From the NCBI GenBank assembly GCA_050084515.1, contig CM114271.1:13702001-13766000 (forward strand): 64,000 nucleotides of DNA, read 5' to 3'. Made by a program: the position numbers and the translations under genes. Positions within the stretch are counted from its first letter, which is position 1; each line of letters opens with the position of its first letter. The notes under the pieces were generated by a model. The model was not told the DNA's origin. It saw nothing but the letters and a program-made list of their open reading frames with translations, and made no database searches. Positions 32,671-64,000 of this stretch are shown one piece after another. The DNA is from Blasia pusilla. Lineage: Eukaryota.

Positions 32671-32975
32671 TAGAGCGCATGCGCATAACAAAGCCCTTTG
32701 TATGATTTTCATTATCATCTTTCTCAATTCCAATCTGTCGTTCTTACTTGATACTTAAGCATATTCAAGTTGAATGATCTATCTTCCATGCAGATCTGGA
32801 GTGGTGGTCATGATGGGGATTCATACACTCAAGGTTACACCAGTGATACTGTGAATTGGGATCACCATCCTCCTTGGAAGGCAAGTGAATTTTTGACAAT
32901 TTCCCTATTTTTGGCTTTAGGAGGCTATTTTTGGGTTTGGATGGTACTTTTGGGTTTCCCCAAAAATAGCATCAT

Positions 32976-33695
<720 letters not shown>

Positions 33696-37369: not shown

Positions 37370-37500
37370 AAAATGAGGAAACATGCTCTCTCATGTTACT
37401 TGTGGCCTCAACAGGTCATCCTTGACCTCTTGAGGCTATCCTCCACTACCCGCAAAGGCTCTCTACTAGATCTCGCCGATCGATCCTAAAAGACGTGACA
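37370..37500 (-). mobile_element. Degenerate extra B-terminus of the element-1 family
   Basis: Aligns with 38140-38267 and ends ...CCTAAAAGACGTGACA. Confidence 0.75.
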
Positions 37501-38582
37501 CTCCAAATTGTAACCTACGTGCAGAGGTTATCGGATAATCGTTATCTTCATCAACAAGTCATATGACTGACAAACACCAAAACAAGGAAATTAGCAAAAA
37601 CAATATTCTTGATGCAATGGACCTTGTCATGCGCATACACATCGCTACACAACATACATCGCTGTCACCGAACACACACACAAACACGCACGATCCCATG
37701 CTAACTCATGGCATCCAAACAACGAGACAAGAAGTACCAAATATCTCCAATTAAAATAAGATCCAATCTCTCTCTACACAATCTCACACCATAGCTCTCA
37801 AAGGTGTGCACTCTCTCTCATATCAAACCAAACCCACTCTCCAAATGAGAGGCTTGGGTTACACTCACAAGGCAAGGGACCATAGCTCCGCCGCCTCATG
37901 CCAAGAGGTTCAACAAAGAAAGAATGAGCTCTCAAGCTCTCTCTCCTTGAGATATATACCCCTCCCCTCTCCCAAGCTCTCTCCATGGTAACCTATTCTC
38001 CCAAGTCACCTCCTTGGCTCTTGACCTGATGTAGGAGGTCAAGGGCCACTTACCAAAAATAGAAAGTCGATCATATACTCAAAATGGTACTTACCTAAAA
38101 TAGTAAGTTCCTCAATATGGCTCCAAATGAGCCAAAACGAAGGGGAAACCTGCTCTCTCAGGTTTCTCGGGGCTTCAGCAGGTCATCCTTGACCTCCTAG
38201 GCCTGTCCTCCACTACTCTTGAAGACGTTGTACTAGATCTCACCGATCTATCCTAAAGGACGTGACAGTTGTCGTGCGCATATACATCGTTACACAACAT
38301 ACATCGTTGTCACCGAACACACACACAAACACGCACGATCCCATGCTAACTCATGGCATCCAAACAACGAGACAAGAAGTACCAAATATCTCCAATCGCC
38401 CCCCTAGCTGGTGGTTAGGTCCCTCTAACTCCAGATAGCCATCTATCCCTACCTACCATGACATACATCTCTCGGACGCTAAGAGCAAGAAGGTTGGGTG
38501 CTCATGTGGCCCCATCGTTAGTCGCCTTCCTATCATCCATGTCAGAGAAAAATTTGGGATCGAGACCTACCTAGTATCTCCT

Positions 38583-45878: not shown

Positions 45879-48004
45879 GCCTTTCTCACCCGATCACTCT
45901 TGCCTCGCGAGTTATCCCTCAATCACTCATCCCAAACATGCGGCACTCGATCTACACACTCCCTCTCGAGACATGTAACGTGCGGCAATAAGCGGCGTGG
46001 TGCGGCAAATCGACCAGGCTATCATCTCATTGACAACCTACCCTCAACTCCGGACATCCCACATAGGTCTATGTCCCCTAAGTCACATACATAAATGATA
46101 CTCTCAGCATCCACACACCCAATATCCCCAAATAAACTACCCAAATCCCAGAATCCCTCACACGTATAGGGTAAAGGACCAGGATGGGTAACCTGAACAC
46201 ATGTCGATGTCGCTCCTCAGCAGCTGCGAATCTCGACCCCAACTCGGTCGTGGAGACAACTCCTCCAATCAGCAAGTCATACTCCTCCCGTACTGACGTT
46301 GCTCAATAATCCTCGATAGACGGTGCGGTTCTAGCGGAACGGTGCGGCGTTGCAAGCGGCACGGAACGGCTACAAACGGCACGACCCTCGATGATGGGAT
46401 GCGGCACTCGGCGGCATACCCTCCTCAATCAAAAATAAACCCACACTTTGCTCCACAATGTCGGAGCGGCTCTGCAATCAAGACGGTGCGGTGTGCGGCC
46501 ACGAGCGGCACGGCGCGGCAATCAGCGGCGCGTTGCGGCTACGGGCGTCACGGCACGGTACCCGATCGTCGTTGAGCGGCTACCAATCACAACATAGCAG
46601 GAGGAAATCAAAACTCAAACACTATAACATGAGGTCATATGCCATCACACGTTGATGATGGTGGCGGCCAAAGCAAAGTACGTGATGGCGACGCAAGTCC
46701 GAGAATCAACGAACGTTGTGGAAGACCCTCCACTCCGTAACGGCGGCAATGGCAACCAAGGGTGGACAAGGGACGGTGGACCATTGAAGATGACGGTTGA
46801 CCATTGATGGTGATGGTTGACCATTGATGATGAAAGTTGACCGTTGACGGTTGACAGTGACCATGACGGCGACGGCCGCCGCCGGTGTGGTGGCTGATTT
46901 AGGGTTTGCACAATTTAACCCTAAAAATCGCCTAGCAATGGCAATTTTTGCAAGATTGACCATACCTTTTTGCTCCCAACTCCAAATTGCACATTTTTTG
47001 TTGCACAGCGTCCACAGCTTGACGATCTACGCCAGTATCAAAAAAATATTTGGAATTGAACATTCCAATAAAAACTGACAAGGACTGTCGTAAAGCCCAA
47101 TGTCTCTTTCTTCTACCCAACATTCCTCCCAACAAAAATGTAAAACTTGTAAAAATGCAAATCAGCAAGCAACATGGTGCTCCCAAAAGCATCGGCATGG
47201 GGTAACCCGCCCCCATACTCAATCCCTATCAGAAATTGGGCAGCGCTTCCGCACGCCACTCTTCCACACGAAAAATCGGCAAATGCAAGGAACAATCCAA
47301 GCAACCCTTGCTCCGATGAGCACTCCCATGAGCCGTTGAACGGGGAACACGGTCCCCAAGCTGCAAAAACAGCGAGTGACCAGCGAGCTCCCCCATGAAG
47401 CTCTCTCACTCTCTCATTCTCTAATTTTGCATTCTCTCTTTCTCTCATTCTCTCTTTGTAAAGTAAGATCCAATCTCTCTCTACACAATCTCACACCATA
47501 GCTCTCAAAGGTGTGCACTCTCTCTCATATCAAACCAAACCCACTCTCCTAATGAGAAGCTTGGGTTACACTCACAAGGCAAGGGAACATAGTTCCGCCG
47601 CCTCATGCCAAGAAGTTCAACAAAGAAAGAATGAGCTCTCAAGCTCTCTCTCCTTGGGATATATACCCCTCCCCTCTCCCAAGCTCTCTCCATGGTAACC
47701 TATTCTCCCAAGTCACCTCCTTGGTTTTTGACCTGATGTAGGAGGTCAAGGGCCAGTTACCAAAAATAGAAAGTCGATCACATACTCAAAATAGTACTTA
47801 TCTAAAATAGTAAGTTCCTCAATATAGCTCCAAATGAGCCAAAACGAAGGCCTCAACAAGTCATCCTTGACCTCCTTGTCTTCCACTACTCTTGAAGACG
47901 CTCTACTAGATCTCACCGATCTATCCTAAAGGACGTGACAACCTATTTCCAACCTTATCCGACATCTCAAGACGAAGTTAAGCCGATACAAATTTTTTAC
48001 CCTC

Positions 48005-48245
48005 TATGTCATCGACCTAGTAGAACTCTATCTCTAGGCTAACTAAGATGTGACAATCTTTGTGCTCATACACATCGCCACATAATCAACATCATTGGTC
48101 ACATCTACACACCACACAAGATTAATCTTCCTAACACACACATAGATCCATACATAAAAAAAATATTTACCCATATATATCGAGACCACACTACCGCCCC
48201 CTAGTTGGTAGTTGAGTTCCCTTAACTCTAAATAGTAGACATCAC
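48005..48245 (-). mobile_element. Older third-subfamily relic (B end, 2 nt, A, PPT) into which element 1 appears to be nested
   Basis: GTGACA (48050-48055) + AT + A-like CTTTGTGCTCATACACATCG..., followed by CCGCCCCCTAGTTGGT, as at 38397. Confidence 0.6.
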
Positions 48246-48479
48246 ATCTATCCAATATAATCCACTATTCTATACATATATAGCACCCTCGGTGTCGTCA
48301 TACCCGCCATATCTCCCAGCACATACTCATTTGTGAGTCCATCTCCTCTATCTCTACCTAGAGATATCAATGTATCCGGATCTCATCCTACATTGCAACT
48401 CTACAGCTACCCACCATATTGATCCCTCTAAAGAGATCTAACACTTTTGCACCCTCCTCCAGATACTACCATACAATAG

Positions 48480-49230
48480 ATGTGATATCCGAAGATGTCA
48501 AGTCTCCACTCCAAGAGCATGATGTTGCTCGATATGGGAGTGTAGGGAGAATCCGTGTAGATAGAGGTGAGTTGAATGTGGAGGAAGCACGAGAGTTCTT
48601 CAATAAGTATGGACTCCAGTTGAGATTAACAACCTCTATGAATCCGGAGGCAAAGGGCAAGAGCGCAAGGGGACATCCGCCAATCATTCAAGCATTGGTA
48701 AAGGTGTGTGGAGACCATTATGCTCATTGGCCTAGATTGCTTCCATTTGCTTCATGGGCATATACGATCACTCACAACAGCGTTACAAGGTTCATGCCTA
48801 CATAGTTGATGCCAGGTCAAAAGCCAATAATGCCAGCAGAAGGAGATATTCCCACTTGGATGGATTTACCGTGGGAGGACGGGCTCGATAGGGAAGAGCT
48901 CATAGCACTTTGAATGTAGCATCTAGAGCGGCGTGAAGTAGATATCGCAGAAGTATTAGTCAAAAGGAAGGAAGCAAGGTTGAAAAATAAGGAACGCTTC
49001 GACAAAAGTCATCGACTTGAGAAGGAGCCTATAAGAGAAGGAGATTGGGTCTTGGTGCACGACAACAACCTCGACAACCAGCATAGTACTATTAAAAAAT
49101 GTGCACGTCATTGGTTTGGTCCATATATTATAGCCTTTTTTTTTTACAATGCCACTTAGAAATTACAAGAGCTAGATATCACAATTCTCAAGTTGCCCAT
49201 TGTAGAAAAAAGGGTGAATATTTTCCGTAG
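48480..49230 (+). mobile_element. Integrase fragment of a different Gypsy lineage, followed by a PPT-like tract and probable 3' LTR start at 49362
   Basis: RYG..GRIRVDRGEL...TTSMNPEAKGKSARGH...WPRLLPFA.WA...GQKPIMP...GDWVLV...WFGPY (GPY/F); GGAGGAGGTGAA|TGTCGT at 49350-49367. Confidence 0.85.
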
Positions 49231-50704
49231 ATGTGAGGGATTTTTGATTTTGACGAATCAGATCAATCTTTCTAGAGATACAGTAAAAATAAGTCTGAAT
49301 AAGATAGCAAGAAGTCTTGACCTGCATATACCGGAGGATGTGCAGATTTGGAGGAGGTGAATGTCGTATAGTAAAATCACCTACCATATAAACTCCTCTC
49401 TCATTAAGTGTTAGAGAGAGTTTTATTAGTATGAAGTAAATTAGCTTAGGAAAAGAAAATTTTCATATTTAAACCTCTTTATGGTGTCTCTTTTATGCGG
49501 GCCCAATTTTAGGAAAAGAGGTAATAAATTAGACATGAGATTATAAAAATAAAGTAGGGGATTGGTGAATTAATGAAAGAAAAGCAAAAGTACTCTTGGT
49601 TTGTGGCTAGGGTAGTTGGGGTAATTTGGAAGATATGAGGTGAGTACAGGATTTGTCATGACCATATGGATTATGTCGTAAAGTATAGTGTGCTAGTAGA
49701 GGCCATTCCTTATGTAGGACCGTAGTGGCTTGGTAGAGATGCGGTTTCATACATAGGGTTGGAGGTTACTCAGTTGGGGGTGACTTTCCCAGTAGGTTGG
49801 AGGATATAAGGTGGAGTGCACTCAAAGAACAATCAATTCTTTGAGTTGAGCCTGTTGCGTTAGGAGTTAGCCTTGGTAGTGAGTAGAGCTCTTGGCTATG
49901 GTGTTTCCCGCAAGCTTCGACATAGATTCTCCCATCGTGGAGTGGGTTTGGCTCGATTGTATGTGATTGTATACGTGTTTTATGACAGTAGGTCTTTCAG
50001 GGATTTCACTCAAAGAACTGGAGTAGATCGATGGTAGCTTCGATTGTAGATCAGTAGGATCTGGTTAGGGCTGATTGTGTACTCAGCCGTGGATGTTCGT
50101 GGCTTGTGGGCTATTCTGCCTGGAGGACGCTTAACTGCTGAGTTCTTAACTATGCAAGTGTACACACTGTTGTAGCTCATTTGGTGCTGTTCGGAGAGTT
50201 GTTAGGCGCTTTATGCATCTAAGGTTTTTGGTTGATGTACCTCTAGCGCATAGTACGGTGTAGCCTCTCCATGCAGGTGATATTTTCAGGTGCTGCGAGT
50301 TCGACTAGCACGTCATCGACCCGCGGCGGAGTAGCTATTGCGTTAGAATTGTGTGGTGGGTTTTGTGGAGTCAGGGGGCACCACGTTTGGTGGATTGTGT
50401 TACCTTGATTTCCATTTGCGATTGGAGGGTTGTCGTTGGACTTCCTGTGTTTGGATCCCCTCCATCGGTGCTTCTTGCTTGCGCGCCCATTGTTAGGGTT
50501 GACGCTGATTTCTAGAGTAGTGTTACTCCTGTGTGCTACCGATAGTGAGGCTGGAGTGATGACCAGTAGACCGTGGGAGGCTTCTTGTGGTGATGACATG
50601 TTAGGTTGCCTACATCCATAGCTAGTAGAGCTAGAATAGTATAGCGACATCGACGTCACTTGGTTATTTGGTGGTGGTAATTTGGTGGTGGTGCGGCATC
50701 GGCG

Positions 50705-52200
50705 TTGGTCATCACGGAGCTGTCGGGTGGTCTGGTTGGGGACCATGGTGCGGACAATGGTGGTTTCACACGGAGTGGATTTAGGTATCGGCTACCTTTT
50801 CCACTTCCGACGGTTGATGAAGAGGAGGACGAGGGTGTTCCAAACACCGAGTCTTCTACGTTGTTATCGAGTGTTGCAGCTCCATTGATTTGGGACATGG
50901 ACGGTGGATATGGGGCCATGAAGGGCCCACGACGATACTCGGGTGCAGTGGGCACCATTGAGTCGGAGGACTTCATGCAGGAGTTTGATACGTGGTGTGA
51001 TATGCAGATGTTATGAACGCACGTTGTTTACACCCTTCTTGGCTTGGAAGGGGTTGTTTCAAAGACTTGTAAGGACCACCCATGGATGATTACCATGAGT
51101 TTAGGAAGGACCATGTTGCTGAGATTGAGGCATGGAGACAATATTGGTCTCCAGGCTATGTGTCTATCACCCATGGTGGTATTGGTAGTAGTGCTCTTAC
51201 TATGCCAACCAGCCCGACGTTGAGTGGTACGAGTACGAGCCGGAGTGGGGGTACTAGTAGAGGTACTAGTGCCCCACCATCGTTCAGCCCGGTTGCAGAG
51301 TTCTTCAAGAGGTTGAAGAAGAACTATCAGGGAGTGAAGACGGAGAAGTTGAGGAATCTTCAGAATTTGAGCGAAAGACGGTGAGAGTCTTCGTGAGGCA
51401 TACACTCGTATCGACGCTTGATTTCGATTACCAGGGTGTGACCGAGGATCAGCGATCGATTTTGGTATGGGATCTTGGACAGAGATTTGCGCCGTAGGGT
51501 ACGTGATGCTACTCTTATGAGTGATGATTCACCCACATTGACCCATATGTTTGCTCTATCTCGAGAAGATTGAGCTTAACATGGTGAAGGAGAGAGTGGT
51601 GACATCTGATTCAAGAGGGGATACAACTACTACTTCTCGTGTTCGGCAGCCCATCTCACAGTCTCATAGTAGTGGTGGTGGTAGTAGTAGTGGGAGTCGT
51701 GGGGGGTACACACGACCTCAGTCAGGTCCTAGAGGGATACTTGCGCAGAGACCATTGCCTTCATTTGCTGCCCCGCAACAAGGAAAGTCATGTTGGATAT
51801 GTGGAGGTGATCATGTTAGGAAGTTTTGTCCCCAAGAGGATGGGAGACGGACTTTGGAGGATGGGCTTCAGTTGGCCCCAACTTAGTGTGATCATTGCGG
51901 GAGACCAGGTCATCCTCGAGAGCGCTTTGCCTTGATCTTCATCCAGAGTTGAGATCAAGCCGCGGCCGTGGTGGAGTAGCTCCGAGAGGCTGAGGTGGTA
52001 GAGGTGGTAGAGGTGGACCAGTGGTTGGAGAGCCTAAGGTGGCTACCCCTACCACTACGATAGAGTCAGCTATGGCTGCCAGGATTGAGCAGTTGGAGTA
52101 GAAGTTGGCTACTATGGCTGGTATCCAGCATAGATCATGTTCGGGAGCAAGGGCTTCCACCTCTTATGGAGGGGATGATCTCTCTTATATGGCGAGTGCA
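50705..52200 (+). pseudogene. Element 2 gag with two zinc knuckles
   Basis: RRYSGAVGTIE..DFMQEFDTWCD; MDDYHEF; YQGVKTEKLR; CWICGGDHVRKFC and CDHCGRPGH. Confidence 0.85.
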
Positions 52201-52651
52201 AAGATGAAAGTTGAGGCATCATCGGTGCAAGAACAGAGGAGCCACTCGGCGCCGAGCCACGTGGTGCTCTTGTGGAGTTGGACCCACAGAGGGGTGAGGG
52301 GGAGGCAGGCTAGGCTTCCCGGTCATTCTTGTTGTCTGAGGTGCTTAGGACTCCATCCATGGTTCCTACGCAGCCTATTGAGCCGACAGTGGGGACTGAG
52401 GCATCTACATCGCGTGTAGTAGACACGGATGCATCATCCAGTGCAATATTGCGGATGGCAACTTCAATATTGGGATCCCCATTGTTTTCGGCCATGGAGC
52501 TAATGGCTTTAGGAGTTGACTTAGCTCCTGTATTTCAGCTAGCAGCCACGTTGTGTGAACGTGGGGGTGTTACTGCTACACGTGTTGAGGTGGATGAGGG
52601 TGTTGCGGTGGAGCGACCCTCTATGTCGAGTAGCATTAAGTACCGTGCTAC

Positions 52652-53150
52652 TTGGCGGCAGCGGCGGCGAAGATGGATGCATTACCAGCCCGGCCAGCCA
52701 TTGATCGTGAGAGGCTTACACCTGGTGTATGTATGTTGGACAACCGGAGTGGGATATTCCGATTGGTGAGTCCTACAGGACAGGTGTATAGACCAGATAG
52801 AGTCTTATTAGACTCTGGTGCCCAACCTTTGATGTTGGGAAAGGCGGCATGTATTGGTTTGGGTATTTGGAGGTCAGAGCTTGAGCCTTGCCCATTCCGA
52901 TTCAAACATCACTTGGAGGAGCCAATGATAGATCTCAATTCATGACACGGGAGAAGTTTTTTTCTGATTGAGACCAGATCATGCGATCGATAGCTCCCGA
53001 TTAGGAGTATCTCGGTAGTCTCATCACCGAGTCGTATGATGTACTAGTTGGAGGAGCGATTGTATCCGATGGGTTTTCAGATGGATTCTTCGGATCGAGA
53101 GGCGTCTTATAGACCTGGTTGGCAGTCCGGGATGGACGTATGAGCCAAGT
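52652..53150 (+). pseudogene. Element 2 aspartic protease
   Basis: RVLLDSGAQPLMLG; ESYDVLVGGA. Confidence 0.88.
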
Positions 53151-53528
53151 TCTGTGAGATTTATTTGTGGGGCTCGACCAGAGGGTCTTCCCCAACAAAG
53201 ATGTTAGCATCCGTGGTCTGGTTTCAAAGTGGAGTAGTCACTTGGCTAGAGACTTTTTGGAGGGTAATATTTCTGCTATGGGTTCTCATGCGCTTGAGGA
53301 GGTAGAGGAGGTCCCTATTCTTGCAGATGGCATCCTCATTGTTGGATGTGCCACTTTGGAGTTCAGCGGTGCACTACGGCAGAGGCGATCGCCTAGTGTA
53401 GGAGGCTTGGTGTGAGGTGTTATACCTCACGAGGAAGAGGAGGCCCCACGGCGGACTCCTACTTCTGGTCCATTAGGTTATCCCTTTGGATACTACACCC
53501 ATTGTATGGCAAGTATCCGCCGGAGGGC

Positions 53529-54460
53529 ATTTGTGTGTTAGATCTCTTTGGTGGGATTAGCACTGGTTTGGTCTTAGATGTTGCAGGCCCGTATTCTGTG
53601 GGGAGATACGTGTATGTGGGAGCGAGATGAGACGGCCCGAGAGTCTCATCCCGACATATTGGTCAGTTGATGCGGAGATATCCTGAGTTGTTGCCGCCAT
53701 CAGCTATTCGTGGGTACCAGCGTGCTTTACCATCACACATTGCATTGTTGGGGGCGCAGGACCTTGAGAGGGTTGGTCCTGTGGATTTGGTGATTGCTGG
53801 ATGGCCATGTCAGGGTCATACACGTGCTGGTTGTGGTGAGGGATTACATGACCCTAGGTCTTGTTTGTTTTGGGAGATGTTACGGGTGTTACGACATCTT
53901 CAGGTTCATCAGGCACGTGCTCTAGCTTTCATTGTGGAGAATGTTCCATTGTTGGGTGACACTCGGACCCGGATGAGGGCGAGTGTTCATGAGGTGCGGT
54001 CTTGGATTGGACCAGCGGTGTTGTTGGATGCAGCCCGAGTTGGCTCGCCTGCACATTGTCCACGCTTGTGGTGGACAAACTTGTTGCCCAGGGAGGTTCT
54101 ACGTCGAGCATATGATGCAGTGCAGCGGGATCCTTGCCTTACCGTGGATAGTATCTTGGATACTGGGCGACTTTCTCAGGTGGTGAGGGTTATTGATCGC
54201 TCACCCATGGCAGTGGTGAACCGTGTGGGCCAGCCTAGGATGGTACTACCCACATTTGTGAGTTTTCCCTCGTCACATGCCTACAGAGAAGGTGGTCCGG
54301 GGCTTGTATGGGATTCTCATGTACGACAGTTGGTGGAGCCTAACGCTGATGAGAGAGAGCGTGCGATGGGATTTGCTACTGGTGTGACACCGGTTACTTC
54401 CATTTCTGAGGCTTCACGACGTCATGTGTTGGGTCAGGCCATGGACCTGAATTGTTTAAG
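53529..54460 (+). pseudogene. Element 2 C5 cytosine DNA methyltransferase domain
   Basis: Motif I ICVLDLFGGISTG; IV GPVDLVIAGWPCQG (catalytic PC); GLHDPRSCLFWEMLRVL; VI FIVENVP; VIII LDAARVGSPAHCPRLWWTNL; IX ERERAMGF; X RRHVLGQAM. Frameshifts after motif I. Confidence 0.95.
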
Positions 54461-54728
54461 TTGGATTTTGAGTCTTGGTATGGCCGAGCAGCGTCGACTT
54501 CGGACTTTGTCTGTGGGTCTTCCACCCCTTGTAATGAGCTCGATGGCTACCGGGACGGTAGAGGCATCGGCTGGGGGCGAGGAGAGTAGTATTTTGCATC
54601 CTTGGAGTAAATGGGATGTAATGGCTGGGCATGTGGAGTTGGTTGCTCATGCTGGTGGAGGAGTTATTTGCTCAGATGATGGTGTAGCTAAGGGTGTACC
54701 ATTTCGTGAGGGGGTTGCGTAGCAGCCA

Positions 54729-56507
54729 ATGGCATCGTCCTCTCCCTCTAGTGTGCCAGTGGAGGAGACTTGGGAGCCATTACTTGGGCCCAAGCTTACG
54801 GGAGGTGAGAAACGACGCTTGACACAGTTCCTACGTGCTTATAGGAGTTGTTTTGCCTTTACCATGAAGGAGTTGGGTTCTCTGGTTGGACCGAGTATAC
54901 GGATTGATTTGGCTAGTGATACGCCAATCTTCTGTCGTCCCTACCGATATAGTGATATGGAGAGGGACCTGATTCAGAGTAGGACGTTGGACCTTTTGGA
55001 GGCTGGATTAGTGGAGTTGTCGCATGAAGAGTATGCATTAGCCACTGTCATGCGTGCTAAAAAGGATATGCATGGCAACTACACGAATAGGCGGATGTGT
55101 GGAGATTACCGTCCTATCAATCGGCAAACCAAGGCCGATAGGTATGCCATGCCTATACCTGAGGAGATCTTTGATGTGGTGGGACAGGAAAAGATTTTCA
55201 CTACTTTGGATCTTCGGGCAGGATACCATCAATTGCCGATTCGGGAGAGTGACAAGGCCAAGACAACATTTTGGGGTGTCAACTCTCATGGCAAGGATTG
55301 TTTGTACCAGTGGAAATTCTTATCCTTTGGGTTGAAGAATGCACCTACCGAGTTTCAGAGAGTTATGGACAGGATCCTAGCAGGGTTGGATTTTGTTCGG
55401 TGTTACATTGATGATATCTTGGTGTTTAGTAACACGGTGGAGGAGCATCAGATACATTTGCAGATGGTGTTTGAGCGGTTGAAAGCTCATGGTCTACGTT
55501 TGCATCCAGGAAAGTGTAAGTTCTTCCATGAGGATGTTGAGTACTTGGGTCATGTGATCTATCCAGGTGGTTTAGGAGTTCAGCAAGCAAAGGTGGAGGC
55601 TATTGCACTTATTCCGCGTCCGGTAGATGTGAGTAGAGTTCGGGCATTCATGGGATTGGCGAACTACTATCGGAGGTATGTGAAGGGATTTAGTGCTATG
55701 GCAAAGCCTTTGAACCAATTGCTGAAATCAGATCAAGAGTGGCACTGGGGAGATGATCAGGAGAGAGCTTTTGTGGAGCTTAAGGCCTACTTGGTGGCGG
55801 CGCTAATCTTGAGGAGACCTATTAGAGGGCGCCCATTTTAGTTACACACTGATTAGAGTAGGTTAGGACTTGGAGCCGTGTTGACACAACATGATGATGA
55901 GCACATGGAGTTTGTGGTGGCCTATGCAAGTCGTTCGAATAATGCAGCGGAGTCGCGCTATAGTTCATATGAGGGAGAGTGCTTAGCAGTAGTGTGGGTT
56001 GTGGCACACTTTAGGTGTTACTTGTTTGGCACACAGTTTACCCTTGTTTCTGATCACCAGCCGCTCAAGTGGTTGATGGAGTCTGACAAGGTTACAGGGA
56101 AGCTTGCACGGTGGGCTCTTATCTTACAGGAGTATGACTTCCAAGTGGTACATAGACCTGGAGTTGGCAACCTTGATGCTGATGGGTTGAGTAGGAACCC
56201 ATGTACTAGCCAAGAGGATACAACTGGGGCTAGATGGCATGGCGAGGTTGATGAGGAGATGGTGCCAGGTTGGCATGCATCCGCCTTTTTATGTTGGTTA
56301 GGGGTGGACTCTAGTATGGAGGATCACATGATATCTTACTCTAGTGAGAGAGTAGATGGCCAGCCTTCAGATCCTAAGGTTGGAAATGGTGGTACGGATC
56401 AGCGTGATATTCATTATGATGCGTTGGTGTTGGAGTTCCTACGGACCAGTAGGGTGCCAGGCATAGTGAGTGCCAAGGAGCGAGACCGTGTTCTTCAGCG
56501 TGCTTAG
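54729..56507 (+). pseudogene. Element 2 reverse transcriptase and RNase H
   Basis: RMCGDYRPINRQT, LDLRAGYHQL, FGLKNAP, YIDDILVFS, YLGHVI; RNase H YASRSNN.AE..Y...EGECLA, SDHQPLKWL, ADGLSR. Confidence 0.95.
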
Positions 56508-56540
56508 AGGTATCGATTAGAGGGAACACATACTCTCCAC

Positions 56541-57837
56541 GTGTGGGAGGATGGTAGAGTACGAGTAGTGCCACATTTGGCTCAGAGAGACCGCATTGTG
56601 CGACATGCGCATGAGGAGTTGGGACATTTTTGGGTAAAGCGTAAGTATAGCTTACTCCTTGGCCAGTATTGGTGGCGTGGCATGCATACTCAGGTGCAGC
56701 AATTGGTGTTACATTGTATGGTTTGTGACCAGGTGAGGGCATCATTCAATGCCCCTACACCACAATTACACCCCTTTCCTATTATGGGGTTGGGTTACCG
56801 TTGGAGTGTGGACTTTGCGGGACCGTTACCGTTGACTGTACGACATCATCGATATGTGTTGGTGATGGTGGAGCACTTCTCCAAGTGGATTGAGTTGGTG
56901 GCATTACCGGACAAGGCAAGTGAGGGAACGGCGTATGCGTTTCTTGATAGAGTGCTTAGTCATTTTGGTGCACCGGTGAAGTGTCGACCGACCGAGTCTG
57001 AGTTTCAAGGTGAGTTTCAGGTCTTGTGTGACAAGGCGTTGATTGATCATCGGACCACGTCTCGAGATCATCCAGGCGGATGGTTTGGCTGAGCGTGTGA
57101 TTCAGATGAAGTGAAGAGGGCATTGGGCAAGTATGGCCTCTGAAGGGCATCTTGAGACAGGATATTCAGTTGCCATGGTTAGCCATGGGGTATAGGTTCA
57201 GTCACCAAGCATCCTTGGCTTCCTTCTCACCTTATAATCTGTTATACGGCCGAGATCCAGACTTGCCAGCAGCAATTCGTCGGGAGTCTAGTGAGGTGGT
57301 GAACCTTGATGACCCAGAGATGTGGATGAGAGTGCGTTCTCAGCGGGCAGAGCTCTTTCGGAGAGTTATGCCAACATCCTTTGAGAATCTTGCCATTGCT
57401 CAACACAGGGATACATTGCGGTATGCATTCGGGGTGGAGGTTATCGACCATCGATTCGTAGGTTCCATGTGGGGGACTATGTCTATTTGCAGCAGATTGC
57501 ACCGACAACGTTGGATGTGACGGCAGGCCGTACTATTTTACAAGTGCGAGAGGTGTTAGCTTCTGGAGTTCTCATGTTGGAGGGTCGTGATGGAGTTGTT
57601 TGGAAGGACCATGTGCGTAATTGTGCGTCATGTCATCTTCCAAATGTGGATGGTACTGTTGACCCAAGCTTAGCCATGATCCGTGCTAGCTTGAGGTGCA
57701 TGTTGTGTGGGTCTGCTGGTAACGCTGCTCGTATGTTGGTGTGTGATCGGTGTTCTAGGGGTTGGCACATGATGTGTTTGACTCCACGTATGGATGTTGT
57801 TCCTACAGGAAGGTGGGTTTGTCCTCGATGTACTTAG
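56541..57837 (+). pseudogene. Element 2 DDE integrase with C-terminal PHD finger (57697-57837)
   Basis: AHEELGH...CMVC; WSVDFAGPL; EHFSKWIELV; PHD CMLC..CDRC..HMMC..WVCPRC (C4HC3). Confidence 0.95.
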
Positions 57838-59227
57838 GAGAGGTAGATGACTTGATCTTTGCATGATATGGATTACAGATGTGCGACTAACGATGGGGCA
57901 ACCTAGCACCCGGACTTTTGATTCGAGCACCCAAGAAGGTGTATAGCATGTAGTAGATGTATAGGCCTACCTGGGAGTTAGAGGGACCTAACCGCTTGAT
58001 TAGGGGGCGAGTTGTGGTACACTTGTGTTTGTGGATGCTCTCGTCTATGTTATGTATGTATGTGAGTATGGTATATCAGCGATGTATGTTGTATGACGAT
58101 GTGGATTTGCACGACAGCTGTCATGACCATACGGATTATGTCGTAGATTATAGTGTGCTAGTAGAGGCCATTCCTTATGTAGGACCGTAGTGGCTAGGTA
58201 GAGATGCGGTTTCATTCATAGGGTTGGGGGTTACTCAGTTGGGGGTGACTTTCCCAATAGGCCCGCTCTTAGTTTGGAGGATATAGTGTGGAGACCCAAA
58301 GAACAGTCAGTTCTTTGAGTTGAGCCTCTTGCGTTGGGAGTTAGCCTTTGTAGTGAGTAGAGCTCTTGGCTATGGTGTTTCCCGCAAGCTTCGACCTAGA
58401 TTCTCCCATCGTGGAGTGGGTTTGGCTCGATTGTATGTGATTGTATACGTGTTTTATGACAATAGGTCTTTCACGGATTTTAGTTGTGGTACACTTGTGT
58501 TTGTGGATGCTCTCGTCTATGTTATGTATGTATGTGAGTATGGTATATCAGCGATGTATGTTGTATGACGATGTGGATTCACACGACAGATTATATTTTG
58601 GAAGAAATAAGAGATAATCTACTTATGTCAAAATATTATTGGCTAAGCCTTGAGAGGAAGCCATGTGGCACAAGATAAGATTAGTCATATTTTATATTTT
58701 TGTGGATCCCTTGTGAGTATATAAAGAGGAGGGACCTTCAAGGGTTTATCACCTTCTATTTCATTCTTGAGTTATCGTATCATTCTTGAGTGGATGGCAT
58801 TGGGCTTGCTTGCTCTTCCAATGAGAATGGATTACCCCTCTTGAGAGAATAACTTGACCATGATTTATTCTTTGAGAGGATTTTAGAGTGTGATATGTGT
58901 AGAGTTGAGAGACTTGTTATCTTAGGGAAGTTTAGTCATATTAGAGATAGTGGATGGTTTTGGCTTGTTAGTTTCCCAATGAGAATGGATTACTCCTCTT
59001 GGGAGAGCAACTCCAGCAAAATCCATTCTTAAGGTAAGTAGAGGATGCCCGTCAAGTATGGATAGGGGTGGAGCACGAGTTGTACATGATTTTCCTTTCC
59101 TTAACGCGTAGCACGTGAAGATTCTCCTCGTAGATAGACACTACTTTACTTGTTATCTAGTTTACCACTTTGGAGAGGCATTCATGAACCAGTTCATGCA
59201 GTCTCCAACTCTGGTGATTCTTCCTAT

Positions 59228-59579
59228 TGTCACGTTTGGGAGGACATAGGATTGTAAATTGTATGTTCTTATATAGCAATCCATGGATGTTAATATGCCT
59301 GCTTATATAGGATTTAACACTAGTTGTGTTATTTTTCTTGTCTACAAGCATAAAGTAGTTTACAGGGACTTTATAGTTAGGAGTTTTGGTGTTCGATGTT
59401 ATACAGAGGTGATCTCCTCGGCACTACCATTCGTGATTCTTACCGTGAGAGAATACAGGGTTTATATAATAATTTTGTATTGAAAAAGGGGAACTTCTTA
59501 TAGAGTGCACCTTGCATCAACCCCGTTTTCCGCAGCTAGAAGGTATGCTCTTACTCAAAGAAAATCTCTCGACACGATA
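59228..59579 (+). mobile_element. Isolated LTR (about 352 bp) of the tRNA-primed Gypsy family at the window end, in opposite orientation
   Basis: TGTCACG...GACACGATA; aligns with the reverse complement of 63659-64000. No TSD (CCTAT / ATGTC). Confidence 0.85.
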
Positions 59580-59599
59580 ATGTCTCAAGCACTTGCTGT

Positions 59600-61830
59600 G
59601 AGGGCAAGTCCTCCACCTCCTCACCAACTATCTATAAACGCAAGACACAATATGGAGGCTAGCCTTAACACCTCCATTGGTCCAACTTCCATTGCCGCCA
59701 ACTCCATAGCCAAAAATGAAGGAGTCTGGCTCACTCTAGTGGCCATCTCAAAAACATTGACATTGGCTCCATCCAAGATGGCACAAGAGTCATCTCTCCA
59801 ACCTCTTGTGAGGTCAACGCACCTATCCCACCTATAGGCACCCCTAGTTGTCTAGGCACCATCGATTGTATGTGAAGTGTCTAGAATGTGAAAGATTGTG
59901 GAACCCTTGCCTATCGCCCATCGGTCCCCTACTCTAGATCGATCTCCACACTACCTCTAAATGGTTTGGTCATTCTCATAGCACCGAGTCACCACCGTAG
60001 GAGCCTCTACCTGAGCCGCACTACACATAAATCTCAAGCTCGCATAATCATCCTCCATATCCAGATACAATGTGGAGGTTTGAGCTACATTAGCTACTCT
60101 TGTCTTTGTGCCTATCACTAGAGGCATCATCGTCATGGTAGCAATCCTCTACTCTAATTGATCGGTGCAAGTGCTCGTGGAAGTGAGGATGTTGCATTGG
60201 GTGTATGTCCTCCATCTCCTCTGGCTGGTGATGAAACCCTACCACCACAGTCATCAAATCCTTGATCTCTACCAACTCTCTTGCCCTCAAGCCCTTGGCC
60301 TACCTCTGGACGTAGCTCTCAGCCAATATCAAAACACATATCCCTAATATGACCATATTGGTGATAATGGTCATACCGCAACTATGGTGGGACCATCCTA
60401 GGTGGCTCCTCAACACTTGGAGGCATCCTTGGCCCTCTACCATGTTGTGGTCAGTCCCTTTCCCTATGGGGACCAACAAGCCAAGGTTGGTCCTTAACCT
60501 AACATATCTACACATCAACGACTAGACAACCTTGATATAAATTTGATATGGAATGTGAAATCTAATGAAACTTGCAATTAGCTATGCTTCATCCAAACAT
60601 CCACTCAATGATACACATTGTGGTAACAGTAGGAGAAAGTCTAAAATATACTCTCAATATGTGTGATCTCTGATCAATCCTAGCCCACTCTCCAAGAGAG
60701 AATCTAGGCTCAATACATCCAAGTTGCACTATATTACATATCCCAACATGGATCTGATCCAAGGAAGAGGAGGAGATTTGAATGAGCTTCATCCGAGGTT
60801 TACCCCCTCGGGCACCTCCATGGGTGACTTGTACACATAGGTAACCTCCTCCTAGCAAGTCACTAATAACCTGGAGTACACAAGGTACTAACTCTCTAAC
60901 AACTACACATGCGGTCCTCTCATGAGACCAATCACCAACTAACCCTTAACCTTATAGGCCCAATTAAGTGGCTCCACACAGAGAATGGGAGGGTCAATCT
61001 CTCCAAGGTTGCCACTCCTCATAAAAGAAGGGTGACCTACACTCATAAATTACCTCTTAAGATTAGGTCACACATGACCTCTAAAAATAGGGAAGTACAA
61101 GACCCCTTTAAGTCCTCAATACTATCTTGCCCTACGTCTCATCTACCATGATAACCACCTTTAATGTAGGTTTCGCCGTGTGAAGCAACATTGGATCTTA
61201 AACTCTCCTCCATAGCTTCTGGTCCAAAGCCCTGTACCAATATTGTAGTGAGTGTGCCTTGATCACTCCATATGTGGCAATGATCAATCACTGCTTGTGC
61301 GTGAACGCCTCTCTCAGACTCTCACCCGATCTCCGCTGAAAATCTTGTAGACTCTTCAGTTTGTCAGTCGGCATGCCTTGGTACGTAGCTCCTCCTTAAC
61401 TATCAAAATAACTACACTGTAGGACTAAAATTGGGTGGTACTCTAGCACTAGGGGTCTCTGCCACCTCGCCGCCCTCACTACCATTATCTCCATCTAGTC
61501 TCTAGGCTAATGGTGTAGGCCTCTCGTCTCTCACTATCCCATTCTACGCCTCGCAGCCACTAGTGGATACTTACCTTGGAGCCTAATATATCCTCCAAGC
61601 ATCAATCTCTACCAAGTGTAGAAACCAAAACTCCCTGTAGTCATCCATTGGAGGACCCTCTAAGTGCTGGAGAAAAACCTTCCACAATGTCCAAGGGTTG
61701 AACCACATAGGGACTCGTATCTTTTGGAAGTCGCACCATTTGTCAAAATCTTAGATGAAATCATCTAAGTCAATGTTTCCTACCGCACCTAAGAAACGAC
61801 GTATGTCTTGGTGGCCCATGGCATCCATCT
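59600..61830 (-). mobile_element. Highly degenerate gag/pre-protease relic of the DNMT-PHD Gypsy family
   Basis: RFLGAVGNIDLDDFI.DFDKWCD...WFNPWTLW..FLQHLEGPPMDDYREF (61620-61800) and VFEMAT.....PSFLAMEL (about 59700-59755) match elements 1 and 2. Confidence 0.8.
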
Positions 61831-64000
61831 CCCTCCACTCTCGCCTCTTCTCCTTGTAAGTCAAGCTTTTGTCCAAAAACTTGGCAAAGCTCTTCATCTT
61901 CTTCTTCTGTGATGTCAGTATCCAATGCCCTCACCATCACCATATCTCCAGTCATTTGCCTTTTCCTTTTGATCACATCTATGATCAACTCATGGAAGTC
62001 ACGTTTGGCTATGCCCAAGACTTCCCTCAAAGAAAACTCTATTTTCGCATCCAAAATCCTATCCTCAAGAATCTCTTTTAAATTCGTTCTTGTCTCTATA
62101 TCAAATTGCAACTTGTATGTAGGAGTCTTACACTTGGTCTTCTGGGAAGACCTCAATTCTTTCTCCTTCATTCCACCTTCTTTCATTTGAGAATCCATCA
62201 TAGATTCAGATGTAGAAGGCCCTTCTTCTCTTGATGGTTGCGCCTCTGGTTGCCCTTTCCTTCTTACGGTCCTCGCTCTTCTTGCAGCTTCCTCGAGATC
62301 AGCACCATCATTGTCGCATCTCCTCTTCTCCTCCACACTAGCATCTTGCCAACTCACATGTTTCTCTTGTGCTAGGTATGCTTTAACACATCCAACTTCC
62401 ACTGGATCATCCCATCCAGTCAGATGACGGATAGTCTCTGCCCCTCGTATCATCACTTCTCGAGGAAATTGTAATGATTCACTTTTAGCTACAGATACAA
62501 TAGGCACTTCTATTTTTTCTGCAAAGGTATCAGAATCTAATGCCGTAGTGGCAACTCCTACTTGACTTCTCACTAAGCCTTTCATTCCTCCTCTACCAAA
62601 GTTGGTATTCAACAACATACCAGTCTGCGTTGAATGAATCTTCCCATCTTTGAAGTTTACTATTCCATTCCTAAGAGCTTCTGAAAACTCCTCACATTCT
62701 CGACGTTGATGCTCAACACTATCACACCATATACATTTTCTCACAAAGTTCCTACTTATTGAAGGAGCACCAACACTAGGATTCCTATCAAGTTAAAGCT
62801 CAGCCATTTCTACTCTCAATTCTCTCAAACCTTTCACCAACTCATCTATAGCAGGATCTTCAAGTTTTGTTGAAACGGGCTTAGGCAATGGATTTGAAAT
62901 TGATACCTCCGACTTGAATAGTGCGGTTCTACCTCTACTTCGATTTTGCTTTGTAAGGATAGCAACAGCTTCTTCCACTTTCTTCCAATTAGTGCTAATA
63001 TCTCCTTCTTCGGTCTTGTCCGCCAACATTATGAAAATTTTGTCCTCCAAATTCTCGTCAGCCGCCTCAAGGAATAACTCAGTTTTCCTCAAGTCTAGAG
63101 TTGCTCTTTCGGAAGAAGAAAGCTGAAAAAACCGCTTCTCAAACTCACGCAATAATTCATTTGGAGTCATTCCCTTCCCTGGACGTTGCTTTGTCCATTT
63201 AAAAAACTCCTCTTAGTCACCCGATCCACATCATCATCGAAGAATTCTCTTTTAAGCAACTGCTCATACTCCTCCCACGAGGTTGAATTTTCTGCTCTCA
63301 ACTTCTTCACTTGACTACGAATCTCTTGTATTAGAGCTAACTCAAAACTTGACGCCATATCATCTTCGGGTACACGATTTACCTCCATCTCACAAACGTA
63401 CTCTCGAACATACTTGGTGATGTTTCTCCCATCAAATCTCCCCAATTTCTTTACAATCGCTTGAAGAGCCCTTGTTGATCTTTGCTCTCCTATGTGAACT
63501 CCTCCTTGTTGGCTCAACAATGTTGTCAAAGTTCATAGAAGATCCTCAGCTCCCTCAGTTCCCATTGATGAAGTACTACCAAAAGTAGTCATCTTGATTA
63601 GACTCCAACTTGCAAACACAATCTACCGTCTCAAAGATCTCTCAGTGGAAGCACCATTTGTCGTGTCGAGAGTCTTTCTTCGAGTAAGGGCATGCCTCCT
63701 AGCTGCGGCAGACGCGGTCGATGCAAGATGAACTCTCTGAGAAGATCTCCTTTTTCAATATAAAATTATTATGTATACTCTCCATTCTCTCACGATAGGT
63801 ATCACAAATGGAAGTGCCGAGTCGATCACTTCTTCGTAACATCGGATCCCAAAATTCCTAACTATAAAATCCCTATAAGCTATTTTACGCTTGTATACGA
63901 GGAAGATAGCACAAGTAGTATTAAACCCTACTTGATCCGGCTTATTAATGTCCATGGATTGCTATATAAGGACATATAAAGTACAATCCCATGTCCTTCC
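61830..64000 (-). mobile_element. 5' part of a conventional Gypsy element: LTR (63659 to beyond 64000), tRNA PBS (63639-63656), gag with CIWC...H....C knuckle
   Basis: LTR ends ...CACGACA, then AA, then TGGTGCTTCCACTGAGAG (3'-CCA tRNA complement, resembles tRNA-Thr). Gag: RFDGRNITKYVREY..EME; CIWCDSVEHQRREC; PTYKL..DIE...LKEILEDRILDAKIEFSLREVLGIAK. Confidence 0.88.

What the first reader, a model, noticed from the sequence alone, without database searches (positions are those of the whole stretch)
58105..58130. Internal back-to-back att junction CA-nn-TG forming a short palindrome
Seen in sequence: the element's right-end and left-end sequences are fused internally with exactly 2 spacer bases. 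Element 2 has CACGACA-GC-TGTCATG (GACAGCTGTC is a perfect palindrome). Element 1 has CACGACA-AC-TGTCACG (38261-38276, minus). A decayed third case sits at 48050-48065. The 2 nt are absent from the true termini. Inference: this is the preserved integrase cleavage site, with the spacer lost on processing like the terminal dinucleotide removed from retroviral cDNA. It is functionally analogous to the circle junction/ICR of DIRS elements.
Basis: partly seen in the sequence, partly recalled or inferred. Interest (0 to 1): 0.8.

Follow-up and report, generated by a model that had tools for sequence, protein, structure and literature searches.

The report
Internal integrase cut site in permuted retrotransposon
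Two plant-type gypsy retrotransposons carry, inside their 3' repeat block, their own right and left ends fused head-to-head with two bases between, which suggests that they insert from an end-joined (circular) DNA form rather than from the usual linear copy.

Summary
Element 2 (+, 49654-58588) and element 1 (-, 47940-37625) are Ty3/gypsy-type retrotransposons. They encode gag, C5-DNA methyltransferase, RT, RNase H, DDE integrase and a PHD finger. Their repeats are laid out A-internal-B-nn-A-B. Each whole unit starts TG, ends CA and is flanked by a 4-bp target duplication (GATT; AGGT). The internal B-nn-A junction is therefore not a separate solo-LTR insertion.

CA and TG are 2 nt apart in 5 of 5 junctions examined. 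These are two intact and one decayed in the window, one metagenome copy, and one distant relative cut by its contig end.

New here:
- A polypurine tract abuts the first base of B1.
- A self-priming primer-binding site abuts the last base of A1.
- The A2|B2 junction is a precise fusion of those two boundaries.

So the LTR as reverse-transcribed is B-nn-A. The genomic copy is a circular permutation of it, opened at CA-nn-TG. This fits an integrase attachment site used on an end-joined (2-LTR-circle-like) cDNA. That mechanism is inferred, not shown.

The DIRS-like repeat layout in a DNMT-carrying gypsy element was already noted for Klebsormidium nitens (PMC5890265). My searches found no account in print of the att, PBS and PPT anatomy.

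The parts
49650..49653 (+). Element 2 left target-site duplication GATT
   Evidence: Same 4 nt at 58589-58592. Empty-site joint 49646->58593 with 7 letters between.
49654..50007 (+). Element 2 A1 (left end TGTCATG; U3b-R-U5 by inference). TATA-like GATATAAGG at 49803-49811. Arm TTCTTTGAGT at 49837-49846.
   Evidence: 18 of 350 aligned bases differ from A2. Motif positions.
50008..50020 (+). Element 2 putative self-priming PBS ACTCAAAGAACTG
   Evidence: 13-nt exact complement of 58308-58320 in A2; 0 of 2000 shuffles reach this. It pairs with the 5' arm in both the MFE and the centroid fold.
50021..58001 (+). Element 2 internal region: decayed gag and protease region, then DNMT, RT, RNase H, integrase and PHD
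   Evidence: Pfam hits PF00145, PF00078, PF17917, PF17921, PF00665 and PF00628. The frames are broken by stops.
58002..58009 (+). Element 2 polypurine tract AGGGGGCG, directly before B1
   Evidence: The same arrangement is seen in element 1, L001 and L004.
58010..58116 (+). Element 2 B1 (ends CACGACA)
   Evidence: 2 of 107 bases differ from B2.
58117..58118 (+). Element 2 spacer GC between CA and TG (the finding)
58119..58481 (+). Element 2 A2 (starts TGTCATG). The T at 58481 is probably the U5-terminal C after a C>T change.
   Evidence: L001 has TTTC|AGTTG at the same junction.
58482..58588 (+). Element 2 B2 (right end CACGACA)
58589..58592 (+). Element 2 right target-site duplication GATT
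47941..47944 (-). Element 1 left duplication AGGT (read on the minus strand)
47459..47940 (-). Element 1 A1 (starts TGTCACG). TATA-like motif at 47666-47658. Arm CTCATTCTTTCTTTG at 47635-47621.
47444..47458 (-). Element 1 putative self-priming PBS CAAAGAGAGAATGAG
   Evidence: 14 of 15 positions complementary to the arm in A (the mismatch is a G.U pair); 0 of 500 shuffles reach this. The fold has z = -4.6.
38397..38405 (-). Element 1 polypurine tract AGGGGGGCG, directly before B1
38270..38396 (-). Element 1 B1 (ends CACGACA)
   Evidence: 4 of 127 bases differ from B2.
38268..38269 (-). Element 1 spacer AC
37752..38267 (-). Element 1 A2
37625..37751 (-). Element 1 B2 (right end CATGACA)
37621..37624 (-). 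Element 1 right duplication AGGT
47945..48202 (-). Element 4 remnant: PPT (48202-48194), B, junction GCACAAAG-AT-TGTCAC (48065-48050), and the start of A, which is interrupted by element 1

Best explanation
CA-nn-TG is the integrase attachment site of a Ty3/gypsy-type retrotransposon family whose att site has moved from the LTR tips to a point inside the LTR.

Shown by sequence:
1. A polypurine tract ends exactly at the first base of B1.
2. A primer-binding site ends exactly at the last base of A1. It is complementary to a segment about 170 nt inside A, about 30 nt downstream of a TATA-like motif. This is a Tf1-like self-priming layout.
3. A2|B2 is a precise fusion of those two boundaries.
4. 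The integrated unit starts at the TG and ends at the CA of the site and is flanked by a 4-bp duplication.

Inferred:
- Reverse transcription makes ordinary linear cDNA (B-nn-A)-PBS-internal-PPT-(B-nn-A). Its tips lack TG and CA.
- The tips become joined U5 to U3, either as a 2-LTR circle or by an end-to-end template switch.
- The DDE integrase nicks both strands 3' of CA at the site in the upstream LTR. With a 2-nt spacer the two nicks are 2 bp apart. This linearises the DNA and leaves recessed CA-3'OH ends with 2-nt 5' overhangs, which is the normal strand-transfer substrate.
- Integration gives A-internal-B-nn-A-B.
- The uncut site in the other LTR persists as the internal junction. Because it lies in U3 of the RNA, it templates both sites of the next generation.
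For: Domains: DNMT, RT, RNase H, H2C2 + rve integrase and PHD. No tyrosine recombinase among 10 ORFs scanned.

Repeat layout and boundaries.

Target duplications GATT and AGGT flank TG...CA in 2 of 2 complete copies. An empty-site joint 49646->58593 with 7 letters between is seen in RNA reads of two runs and in one contig of a third run.

PPT directly before B: element 1, element 2 and L001. It is also directly upstream of the B-like segment in element 4 and L004.

A2|B2 is precise in element 1 and L001, and in element 2 apart from one C>T change.

PBS-to-A complement: 13 nt (0 of 2000 shuffles) in element 2; 14 of 15 (0 of 500 shuffles) in element 1. The sequences differ between the two elements but sit at the same position, so the pairing co-varies. 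The 5'-arm/PBS helix appears in both MFE and centroid folds.

A1/A2 and B1/B2 are similarly diverged: 5.1 and 4.1% against 1.9 and 3.1%.

Spacing is 2 nt in 5 of 5 junctions. L004 is 40-43% identical in pol and has its DNMT in another position, yet it keeps GCACGACAGCTG 112 nt after its PPT. Unrelated DNA shows no preferred spacing: gaps of 0-6 nt gave 7, 17, 22, 18, 11, 22 and 21 of 118 matches.

Sense-strand RNA of the family covers the whole element.

Precedent: foamy-virus and HIV-1 integrases cleave the palindromic LTR-LTR junction. I saw the abstract of PMC1180852 and only the title and start of the abstract of PMC1905944 in a search listing.
Against: No circle, no linear cDNA end and no integrase activity was observed; the mechanism rests on anatomy alone.

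Only two complete copies have readable duplications.

A 2-LTR circle has two identical sites, so the other permutation (A-B-nn-A-internal-B), A-internal-B and A-B forms should also arise. None was verified. Two decayed copies (33693-32982 minus; about 32380-32690 plus) end PPT-B followed by unrelated sequence. That could be such by-products or later decay.

The base after the 3' CA equals the first spacer base in 3 of 3 ends. Chance is about 1 in 64, from small numbers and noticed post hoc. The model does not predict this. It allows a CAR end, a 1-nt spacer and a 3-bp duplication.

The transcription start and the poly(A) site were not mapped. The element 2 fold as a whole is no more stable than shuffles (z = -0.1).

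Element 2's rve match (31.9 bits) lies just under Pfam's cut-off of 32.6.

The L004 junction is cut after TG by the contig end, and its A is unseen.
Confidence: 0.6

Rival explanations
1. DIRS/PAT-style replication without an LTR logic. Template switches during reverse transcription use the internal B-nn-A junction as a bridging template (like the DIRS-1 internal complementary region). They build the terminal sequences and yield the A-internal-B-nn-A-B DNA directly. The integrase then acts on ordinary termini, and the spacer is simply never copied to the ends.
For: The repeat layout equals the split direct repeats of PAT/Ngaro elements (passages of PMC4157794). It was called DIRS-like for the Klebsormidium nitens relative (PMC5890265). 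No circle has been shown here.
Against: A PPT abutting B1 and a PBS abutting A1 are the two boundary-setting signals of ordinary LTR reverse transcription. They predict tips at the B start and the A end, not at TG and CA. I could find no simple series of jumps that puts B after A2 without joining the two cDNA tips. No tyrosine recombinase is present. Target duplications are present.
Confidence: 0.15
2. Same att-site idea, different register. The right end is CAR (CAG/CAA), a single constant C separates it from TG, and the duplication is 3 bp (ATT; GGT). The cut site is then not symmetric and the '2-nt spacer' is a mis-parse.
For: The base after the 3' CA equals the first spacer base in element 1 (A), element 2 (G) and L001 (G, followed by C). 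The second spacer base is C in 4 of 5 junctions and T in the decayed one.
Against: The fourth duplicated base also matches in 2 of 2 copies, which a 3-bp duplication leaves to chance (1 in 16). CA-3' ends and 4- or 5-bp duplications are the rule for plant LTR elements (passage of PMC6317226). A 2-nt stagger yields the canonical processed ends.
Confidence: 0.15
3. Genomic rearrangement. Ordinary LTR elements acquired an extra partial LTR through tandem insertion, unequal recombination or mis-assembly, and the palindrome is incidental.
For: The region is a nest of decayed copies. Element 1 sits inside element 4, and there are remnants at 32380-33693 and 37368-37500.
Against: The same layout with the same boundaries occurs in two elements that are only about 71% identical and lie on opposite strands. 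It also occurs in a metagenome copy, and is reported for K. nitens. Duplications flank the whole unit. The 5' flanks are not B. The 12-mer at the junction is conserved in a distant relative.
Confidence: 0.04

Closest known systems
KnitGypsy-Dnmt3 of Klebsormidium nitens (de Mendoza et al. 2018, PMC5890265; section 9 and the Fig. 4 legend read)
   Same: A gypsy-type pol carrying a C5 cytosine methyltransferase. The legend states that the repeat structure is that of a DIRS element (A-coding-B-A-B) while the domains are typical of gypsy.
   Different: That paper gives no account of termini, duplications, PBS, PPT or the B-A junction in the text I read; its supplements were not opened. The window's copies have their best protein matches in liverworts (Marchantia polymorpha, Calypogeia fissa; 72%), not in a named K. 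nitens protein. Direct sequence relation to the K. nitens copies was not tested.
DIRS-order retrotransposons with split direct repeats (PAT, Ngaro; PMC4157794 passages)
   Same: A1-internal-B1-A2-B2 layout. An internal junction carries the joined end sequences. A circular or end-joined intermediate is implied.
   Different: Those use a tyrosine recombinase and, as I recall, make no target duplication. Here there is a DDE integrase with an H2C2 finger, TG...CA ends, 4-bp duplications, a PPT and a PBS.
Integrase cleavage of the palindromic 2-LTR circle junction in retroviruses (PFV: PMC1180852, abstract read; HIV-1: PMC1905944, search listing only)
   Same: A DDE integrase cuts an internal palindrome made of abutted CA and TG ends and yields 3'-processed ends.
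   Different: In retroviruses the palindrome is created by joining the LTR tips and is at most a side route. Here the palindrome is hard-wired inside each LTR, and the joined tips (A|B) are not the cut site. The spacer is 2 nt rather than the 4 nt of a retroviral junction (the latter recalled).
Tf1/Sushi-type self-priming LTR elements (PMC6317226 passages)
   Same: The PBS is complementary to a segment of the element's own LTR near the presumed RNA start, not to a tRNA 3' end.
   Different: The RNA start is not mapped here. Phylogenetic placement relative to the Tf1/Sushi/Tcn1 group was not tested. A PHD finger replaces a chromodomain.
Bacterial IS3/IS30-family circle or dimer junctions (recalled, no call)
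   Same: Abutted inverted ends separated by a 2-3-bp spacer serve as the substrate of a DDE transposase.
   Different: These are DNA transposons of bacteria with no reverse transcription. The resemblance is mechanistic only.

Membership tests
Ty3/gypsy (Metaviridae) LTR retrotransposon | pol order RT - RNase H - integrase, with a DDE integrase and an H2C2 finger | tested here: met
   PF00078, PF17917, PF17921 and PF00665 occur in that order in element 2 and L004. Element 2's rve scores 31.9 bits against a cut-off of 32.6.
Ty3/gypsy (Metaviridae) LTR retrotransposon | Two complete identical LTRs at the two ends of the integrated copy | tested here: not met
   The 5' end carries A only; the 3' end carries B-nn-A-B.
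Ty3/gypsy (Metaviridae) LTR retrotransposon | TG...CA termini and a 4-6-bp target duplication | tested here: met
   GATT and AGGT flank TG...CA in 2 of 2 complete copies. A 3-bp reading is not excluded.
Ty3/gypsy (Metaviridae) LTR retrotransposon | PBS next to the 5' repeat and PPT next to the 3' repeat | tested here: met
   The PBS-like complement directly follows A1 and the PPT directly precedes B1. Function is inferred.
DIRS order (PAT/Ngaro type) | Tyrosine recombinase instead of a DDE integrase | tested here: not met
   No PF00589 hit among 10 ORFs of the two elements. Integrase domains were found instead.
DIRS order (PAT/Ngaro type) | Split direct repeats A1-internal-B1-A2-B2 | tested here: met
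DIRS order (PAT/Ngaro type) | No target-site duplication (recalled feature) | tested here: not met
   4-bp duplications are present.
KnitGypsy-Dnmt3-like DNMT-carrying gypsy elements | C5 cytosine methyltransferase domain inside a gypsy polyprotein | tested here: met
   PF00145 E = 3.3e-9 directly upstream of RT in element 2. Relatives with PF00145 plus RT, RNase H, integrase and PHD appear.
KnitGypsy-Dnmt3-like DNMT-carrying gypsy elements | DIRS-like repeat layout | tested here: met
   compared with the Fig. 4c legend of PMC5890265.
KnitGypsy-Dnmt3-like DNMT-carrying gypsy elements | Sequence kinship with the K. nitens copies | not tested
Self-priming (Tf1/Sushi-like) initiation | The first bases of the RNA pair with the PBS | tested here: inconclusive
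   The complement is above chance and co-varies between elements. A TATA-like motif lies about 30 nt upstream. The RNA 5' end was not resolved by the laid reads.

The most novel reading that the evidence does not exclude
A family of DDE-integrase LTR retrotransposons, spread from chlorophyte-like algae to liverworts, may integrate obligatorily from an end-joined (2-LTR-circle-type) cDNA through a hard-wired palindromic att site inside the LTR. This would be a natural working version of the abandoned 'circle junction as integration precursor' model. It would also be a living intermediate showing that DIRS/Ngaro-type split direct repeats are circularly permuted LTRs.
Probability: 0.4. Interest if true: 0.85.

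Novelty: new variant of a known kind. Interest (0 to 1): 0.66.

Why it matters
Retroviral-type integrases are held to work on the tips of linear cDNA, and circles are treated as dead ends. Here the sequence signals that set the cDNA tips (PPT, PBS) and the sequences that end up at the chromosomal borders (TG, CA, duplication) lie in different places. This can only be reconciled if the tips are first joined and the DNA is then opened elsewhere.

If confirmed, this would give:
- a natural system for studying integrase action on an internal palindrome;
- an explanation for the odd 'DIRS-like' repeats noted in DNMT-carrying gypsy elements;
- a simple route by which split direct repeats can arise from LTRs.

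It also matters in practice. LTR-finding software that expects two identical terminal repeats will mis-annotate this abundant family.

Tried and rejected
- No whole genome is held for this window, so no census of copies was possible.
- Earlier-findings look-ups returned nothing.
- Scans of viral contigs with the integrase protein and with the pre-PPT motif found nothing.
- The spacing-neutral junction pattern gave 118 matches in viral contigs. All look like chance: gaps of 0-6 nt were seen 7, 17, 22, 18, 11, 22 and 21 times, and 3 matches have AGGGGG upstream but in unrelated sequence. I used these only as a background.
- The metagenome scan with the pre-PPT motif gave 3 loci. L001 and L002 are the same sequence and count once. 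L003 is an unrelated chance match.
- The genome-contig scan gave 6 loci. Only L004 carries DNMT and PHD. L005-L009 are ordinary gypsy-like pol fragments without DNMT.
- The 3-mismatch match at 63791-63806 lies in a different repeat (its pair is at about 59430-59450) and is not a junction of this family.
- The look-up of sequencing runs listed no RNA holder in its index.
- The laid RNA reads did not resolve a transcription start or a poly(A) site. The read lay cannot separate a circle junction from the internal junction, because the two are identical in sequence.
- Copies at 33693-32982 and about 32380-32690 were too decayed to read duplications.
- Literature searches found no description of the att, PBS and PPT anatomy or of permuted LTRs with a DDE integrase, beyond the one legend in PMC5890265. 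The search terms were: split direct repeats + integrase, KnitGypsy (33), 2-LTR circle palindromic cleavage (37), Marchantia DNMT3 gypsy (42, 43), PHD finger integrase algae (67), circularly permuted LTR retrotransposon (68).
- No structure or complex prediction was attempted.

Full report
**What is there**

The window is eukaryotic, and no whole genome is held for it. Between 37.6 and 58.6 kb lie two large retroelements in opposite orientation, about 71% identical over pol.

Element 2 (+ strand) carries, in order:
- a C5 DNA methyltransferase domain (PF00145),
- RT (PF00078),
- RNase H (PF17917),
- an integrase with H2C2 finger and rve core (PF17921, PF00665),
- a C-terminal PHD finger (PF00628).

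No tyrosine recombinase was found among 10 ORFs of the two elements. Frames are broken by stops, so both copies are old.

The best protein matches of the methyltransferase ORF are unnamed polyproteins of Marchantia polymorpha and Calypogeia fissa (72%), then Sphagnum (53%). More distant matches are algal-type polyproteins with RT, RNase H, DNMT, integrase and PHD (34-40%).

**The observation**

The junction is exactly as described:
- Element 2: CACGACA-GC-TGTCATG at 58110-58125, with the perfect palindrome GACAGCTGTC.
- Element 1: CACGACA-AC-TGTCACG at 38276-38261 on the minus strand.

The 16-nt pattern has exact matches only at these two places in the window. The third, decayed case at 48065-48050 reads GCACAAAG-AT-TGTCAC and aligns to element 1 without gaps on both sides.

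**The repeat layout**

Both elements read A1-internal-B1-nn-A2-B2.

| Part | Element 2 (+) | Element 1 (-) |
|---|---|---|
| A1 | 49654-50007 | 47940-47459 |
| B1 | 58010-58116 | 38396-38270 |
| spacer | GC, 58117-58118 | AC, 38269-38268 |
| A2 | 58119-58481 | 38267-37752 |
| B2 | 58482-58588 | 37751-37625 |

The two repeat pairs are about equally diverged: A1/A2 5.1% and 4.1%, B1/B2 1.9% and 3.1%. Both pairs are therefore the same age.

**One insertion, not two**

- Element 2 is flanked by GATT|TG...CA|GATT and element 1 by AGGT|TG...CA|AGGT.
- RNA reads of two runs and a contig of a third run join 49646 to 58593 with 7 letters between. This is the length expected for an empty site, although the 7 letters differ from the window's at 4 of 7 positions. 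The reads come from a diverged paralogue of the flank, not from an allele.
- The 5' flanks are not B.

**What sets the boundaries**

This part is new, and it changes what the junction is.

First, a polypurine tract (AGGGGGCG / AGGGGGGCG) ends exactly at the first base of B1 in element 1, element 2 and the metagenome copy L001.

Second, the bases directly after A1 are complementary to a segment about 170 nt before the end of A.
- Element 2: 13 nt exact; 0 of 2000 shuffles reach this (10 nt against the mutated A1 copy, 14 of 2000).
- Element 1: 14 of 15, the exception being a G.U pair; 0 of 500 shuffles reach this.
- The two elements use different sequences at the same position, so the pairing co-varies.
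- A TATA-like motif lies about 30 nt upstream of the segment in A in element 1, element 2 and L001.
- Folding the stretch from that segment to the PBS pairs the two in both the MFE and the centroid structure. Element 1 has z = -4.6. Element 2 has z = -0.1 overall. I chose the start of the folded stretch.
- Neither PBS starts with TGG, so tRNA 3'-end priming is not indicated (established knowledge).
- This is the layout of Tf1/Sushi-type self-priming (passages of PMC6317226).

Third, A2|B2 is the last base before the PBS fused to the first base after the PPT. No base is gained or lost in element 1 and L001. In element 2 there is a single C>T difference at 58481.

**Consequence**

By the ordinary rules of LTR reverse transcription, the cDNA should be (B-nn-A)-PBS-internal-PPT-(B-nn-A). 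Its tips would begin AGTT or ATTG and end TTTC or TTTA, with neither TG nor CA. The integrated copy is a circular permutation of that molecule. The two tips are joined (A2|B2), and the DNA is opened at CA-nn-TG in the upstream LTR.

The internal junction is therefore the uncut twin of the site that was used. Because it lies in U3 of the RNA, it is copied into both LTRs at each cycle.

With a 2-nt spacer, nicks 3' of CA on both strands lie 2 bp apart. They leave recessed CA-3'OH ends with 2-nt 5' overhangs, the standard strand-transfer substrate. This gives a reason for the constant spacing.

That integrases can cut such palindromes is known for foamy virus (abstract of PMC1180852) and HIV-1 (title and start of abstract of PMC1905944). 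How the tips are joined, by ligation into a 2-LTR circle or by an end-to-end template switch, cannot be told from sequence.

**Conservation**

A scan of metagenome contigs with a motif upstream of the PPT, which is neutral with respect to the junction, returned three loci:
- one related copy seen twice (L001 = L002): PPT-B-CACAACA-GC-TATCATG-A-B, decayed but in the same register;
- one unrelated match (L003).

A scan of genome contigs with an alignment of algal-type polyproteins returned L004 among 6 loci.
- L004 is a 10.4-kb contig with an intact 2152-aa pol ordered RT-RNase H-DNMT-integrase-PHD.
- It is 40-43% identical to the window's elements in RT, RNase H and integrase.
- Its 3' untranslated region has AGGGGGGGAAG, then 112 nt ending CACGACA, then GC, then TG, where the contig stops.
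- The UTR is otherwise unalignable, yet the 12-mer GCACGACAGCTG is identical to element 2.

The CA-to-TG spacing is thus 2 nt in 5 of 5 junctions. Some caveats apply. Two of the five prompted the hypothesis, element 2 and L001 are close relatives, one junction is decayed and one is truncated. In unrelated viral contigs the same end motifs occur with gaps of 0-6 nt at 7, 17, 22, 18, 11, 22 and 21 of 118 matches.

**Expression**

In two stranded RNA runs laid at 85% likeness or more, reads cover the whole of element 2. They lie overwhelmingly in the orientation that corresponds to sense RNA. Only 78 of 4972 and 68 of 5024 reads are 99% or more alike, so it is the family that is transcribed, not necessarily this copy. 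Depth falls in the last bin, which holds B2 and the flank. No start or end of molecules was called inside A.

**Results against, or unexplained**

- No circular or linear cDNA was seen.
- Only two copies give duplications.
- The base after the 3' CA equals the first spacer base in 3 of 3 ends. This permits a CAR end, a 1-nt spacer and a 3-bp duplication, and my model does not predict it.
- A 2-LTR circle has two equal sites, so other permutations should exist. Two decayed remnants (33693-32982 minus; about 32380-32690 plus) end PPT-B followed by unrelated DNA. These may be such products or plain decay.

**Comparison with what is known**

The A-coding-B-A-B layout in a DNMT-carrying gypsy element was noted in one figure legend for Klebsormidium nitens (PMC5890265).

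Compared with DIRS/PAT/Ngaro elements, these elements share the split direct repeats. They lack the tyrosine recombinase and they make duplications. They are therefore not DIRS members, although they may work in a similar way.

They meet the gypsy criteria except for two complete terminal LTRs.

I found no account in print of the termini, duplications, PBS, PPT or att junction of such elements. The supplements of PMC5890265 were not opened and may bear on this.

**Verdict**

- The att-site reading is the best-supported explanation (0.6).
- The analogy to a circle junction needs one correction: the true tip-to-tip junction is A2|B2, and CA-nn-TG is an internal LTR site.
- Novelty: a new variant of a known kind.

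Noticed in passing
window 53478-54494 against L004:3061-9519: The methyltransferase domain lies upstream of RT in the window's elements but between RNase H and integrase in L004 and the algal-type polyproteins. The DNMT domain has therefore moved within pol, or was acquired twice, within one PHD-carrying gypsy lineage.
   Followed up: partly
window 37624/38269, 58589/58117; L001 B2 end: The first base after the 3' terminal CA equals the first spacer base in 3 of 3 readable 3' ends (in L001 both spacer bases match). No such match occurs at the 5' ends. This could be chance (about 1 in 64), a different cut register, or a target preference.
   Followed up: partly
window 32380-33693: Two decayed copies of the family lie tail to tail. 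Each ends PPT-B followed by unrelated sequence, without nn-A-B. One has a long (GA)n run inside A and a large internal deletion.
   Followed up: partly
window 47941-48500 and 37501-37620; 37368-37500: Element 1 is inserted into the A2 of an older, internally deleted copy (element 4). A further A-type 5' end (TGTCACG, 81% to element 1) starts at 37500 with non-B sequence before it.
   Followed up: partly
window 49500-49653 and 58593-58700: The flanks of element 2 are themselves transcribed and repeated. Reads and a contig join them across the element through a diverged 7-letter stretch, and many reads run on into unlike sequence at 49579 and 58681.
   Followed up: no
window 50982-57446 and 56367-57369: RNA reads of two runs skip 6463 nt and 1001 nt inside the element (the latter with 9 other letters between). 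This suggests transcribed, internally deleted relatives.
   Followed up: no
window 17615-18835 (-): An open frame of 406 aa with an F-box and Kelch/KIB1-4 beta-propeller domains. It is a likely host gene amid the repeats.
   Followed up: no
window 59238-59580 and 63658-64000; 61770-63532 (-): Another repeat family is present. Its inverted copies are 81% alike, and it has gag-like frames, one with a weak DUF4100 match (26 bits, under the cut-off).
   Followed up: no
L004:10236-10362: The contig of the distant relative ends two bases into the presumed A. Its last 127 bases, the assembler's word size judging by the contig name, begin exactly at the polypurine tract. The reason for the break at that point is unknown.
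   Followed up: no
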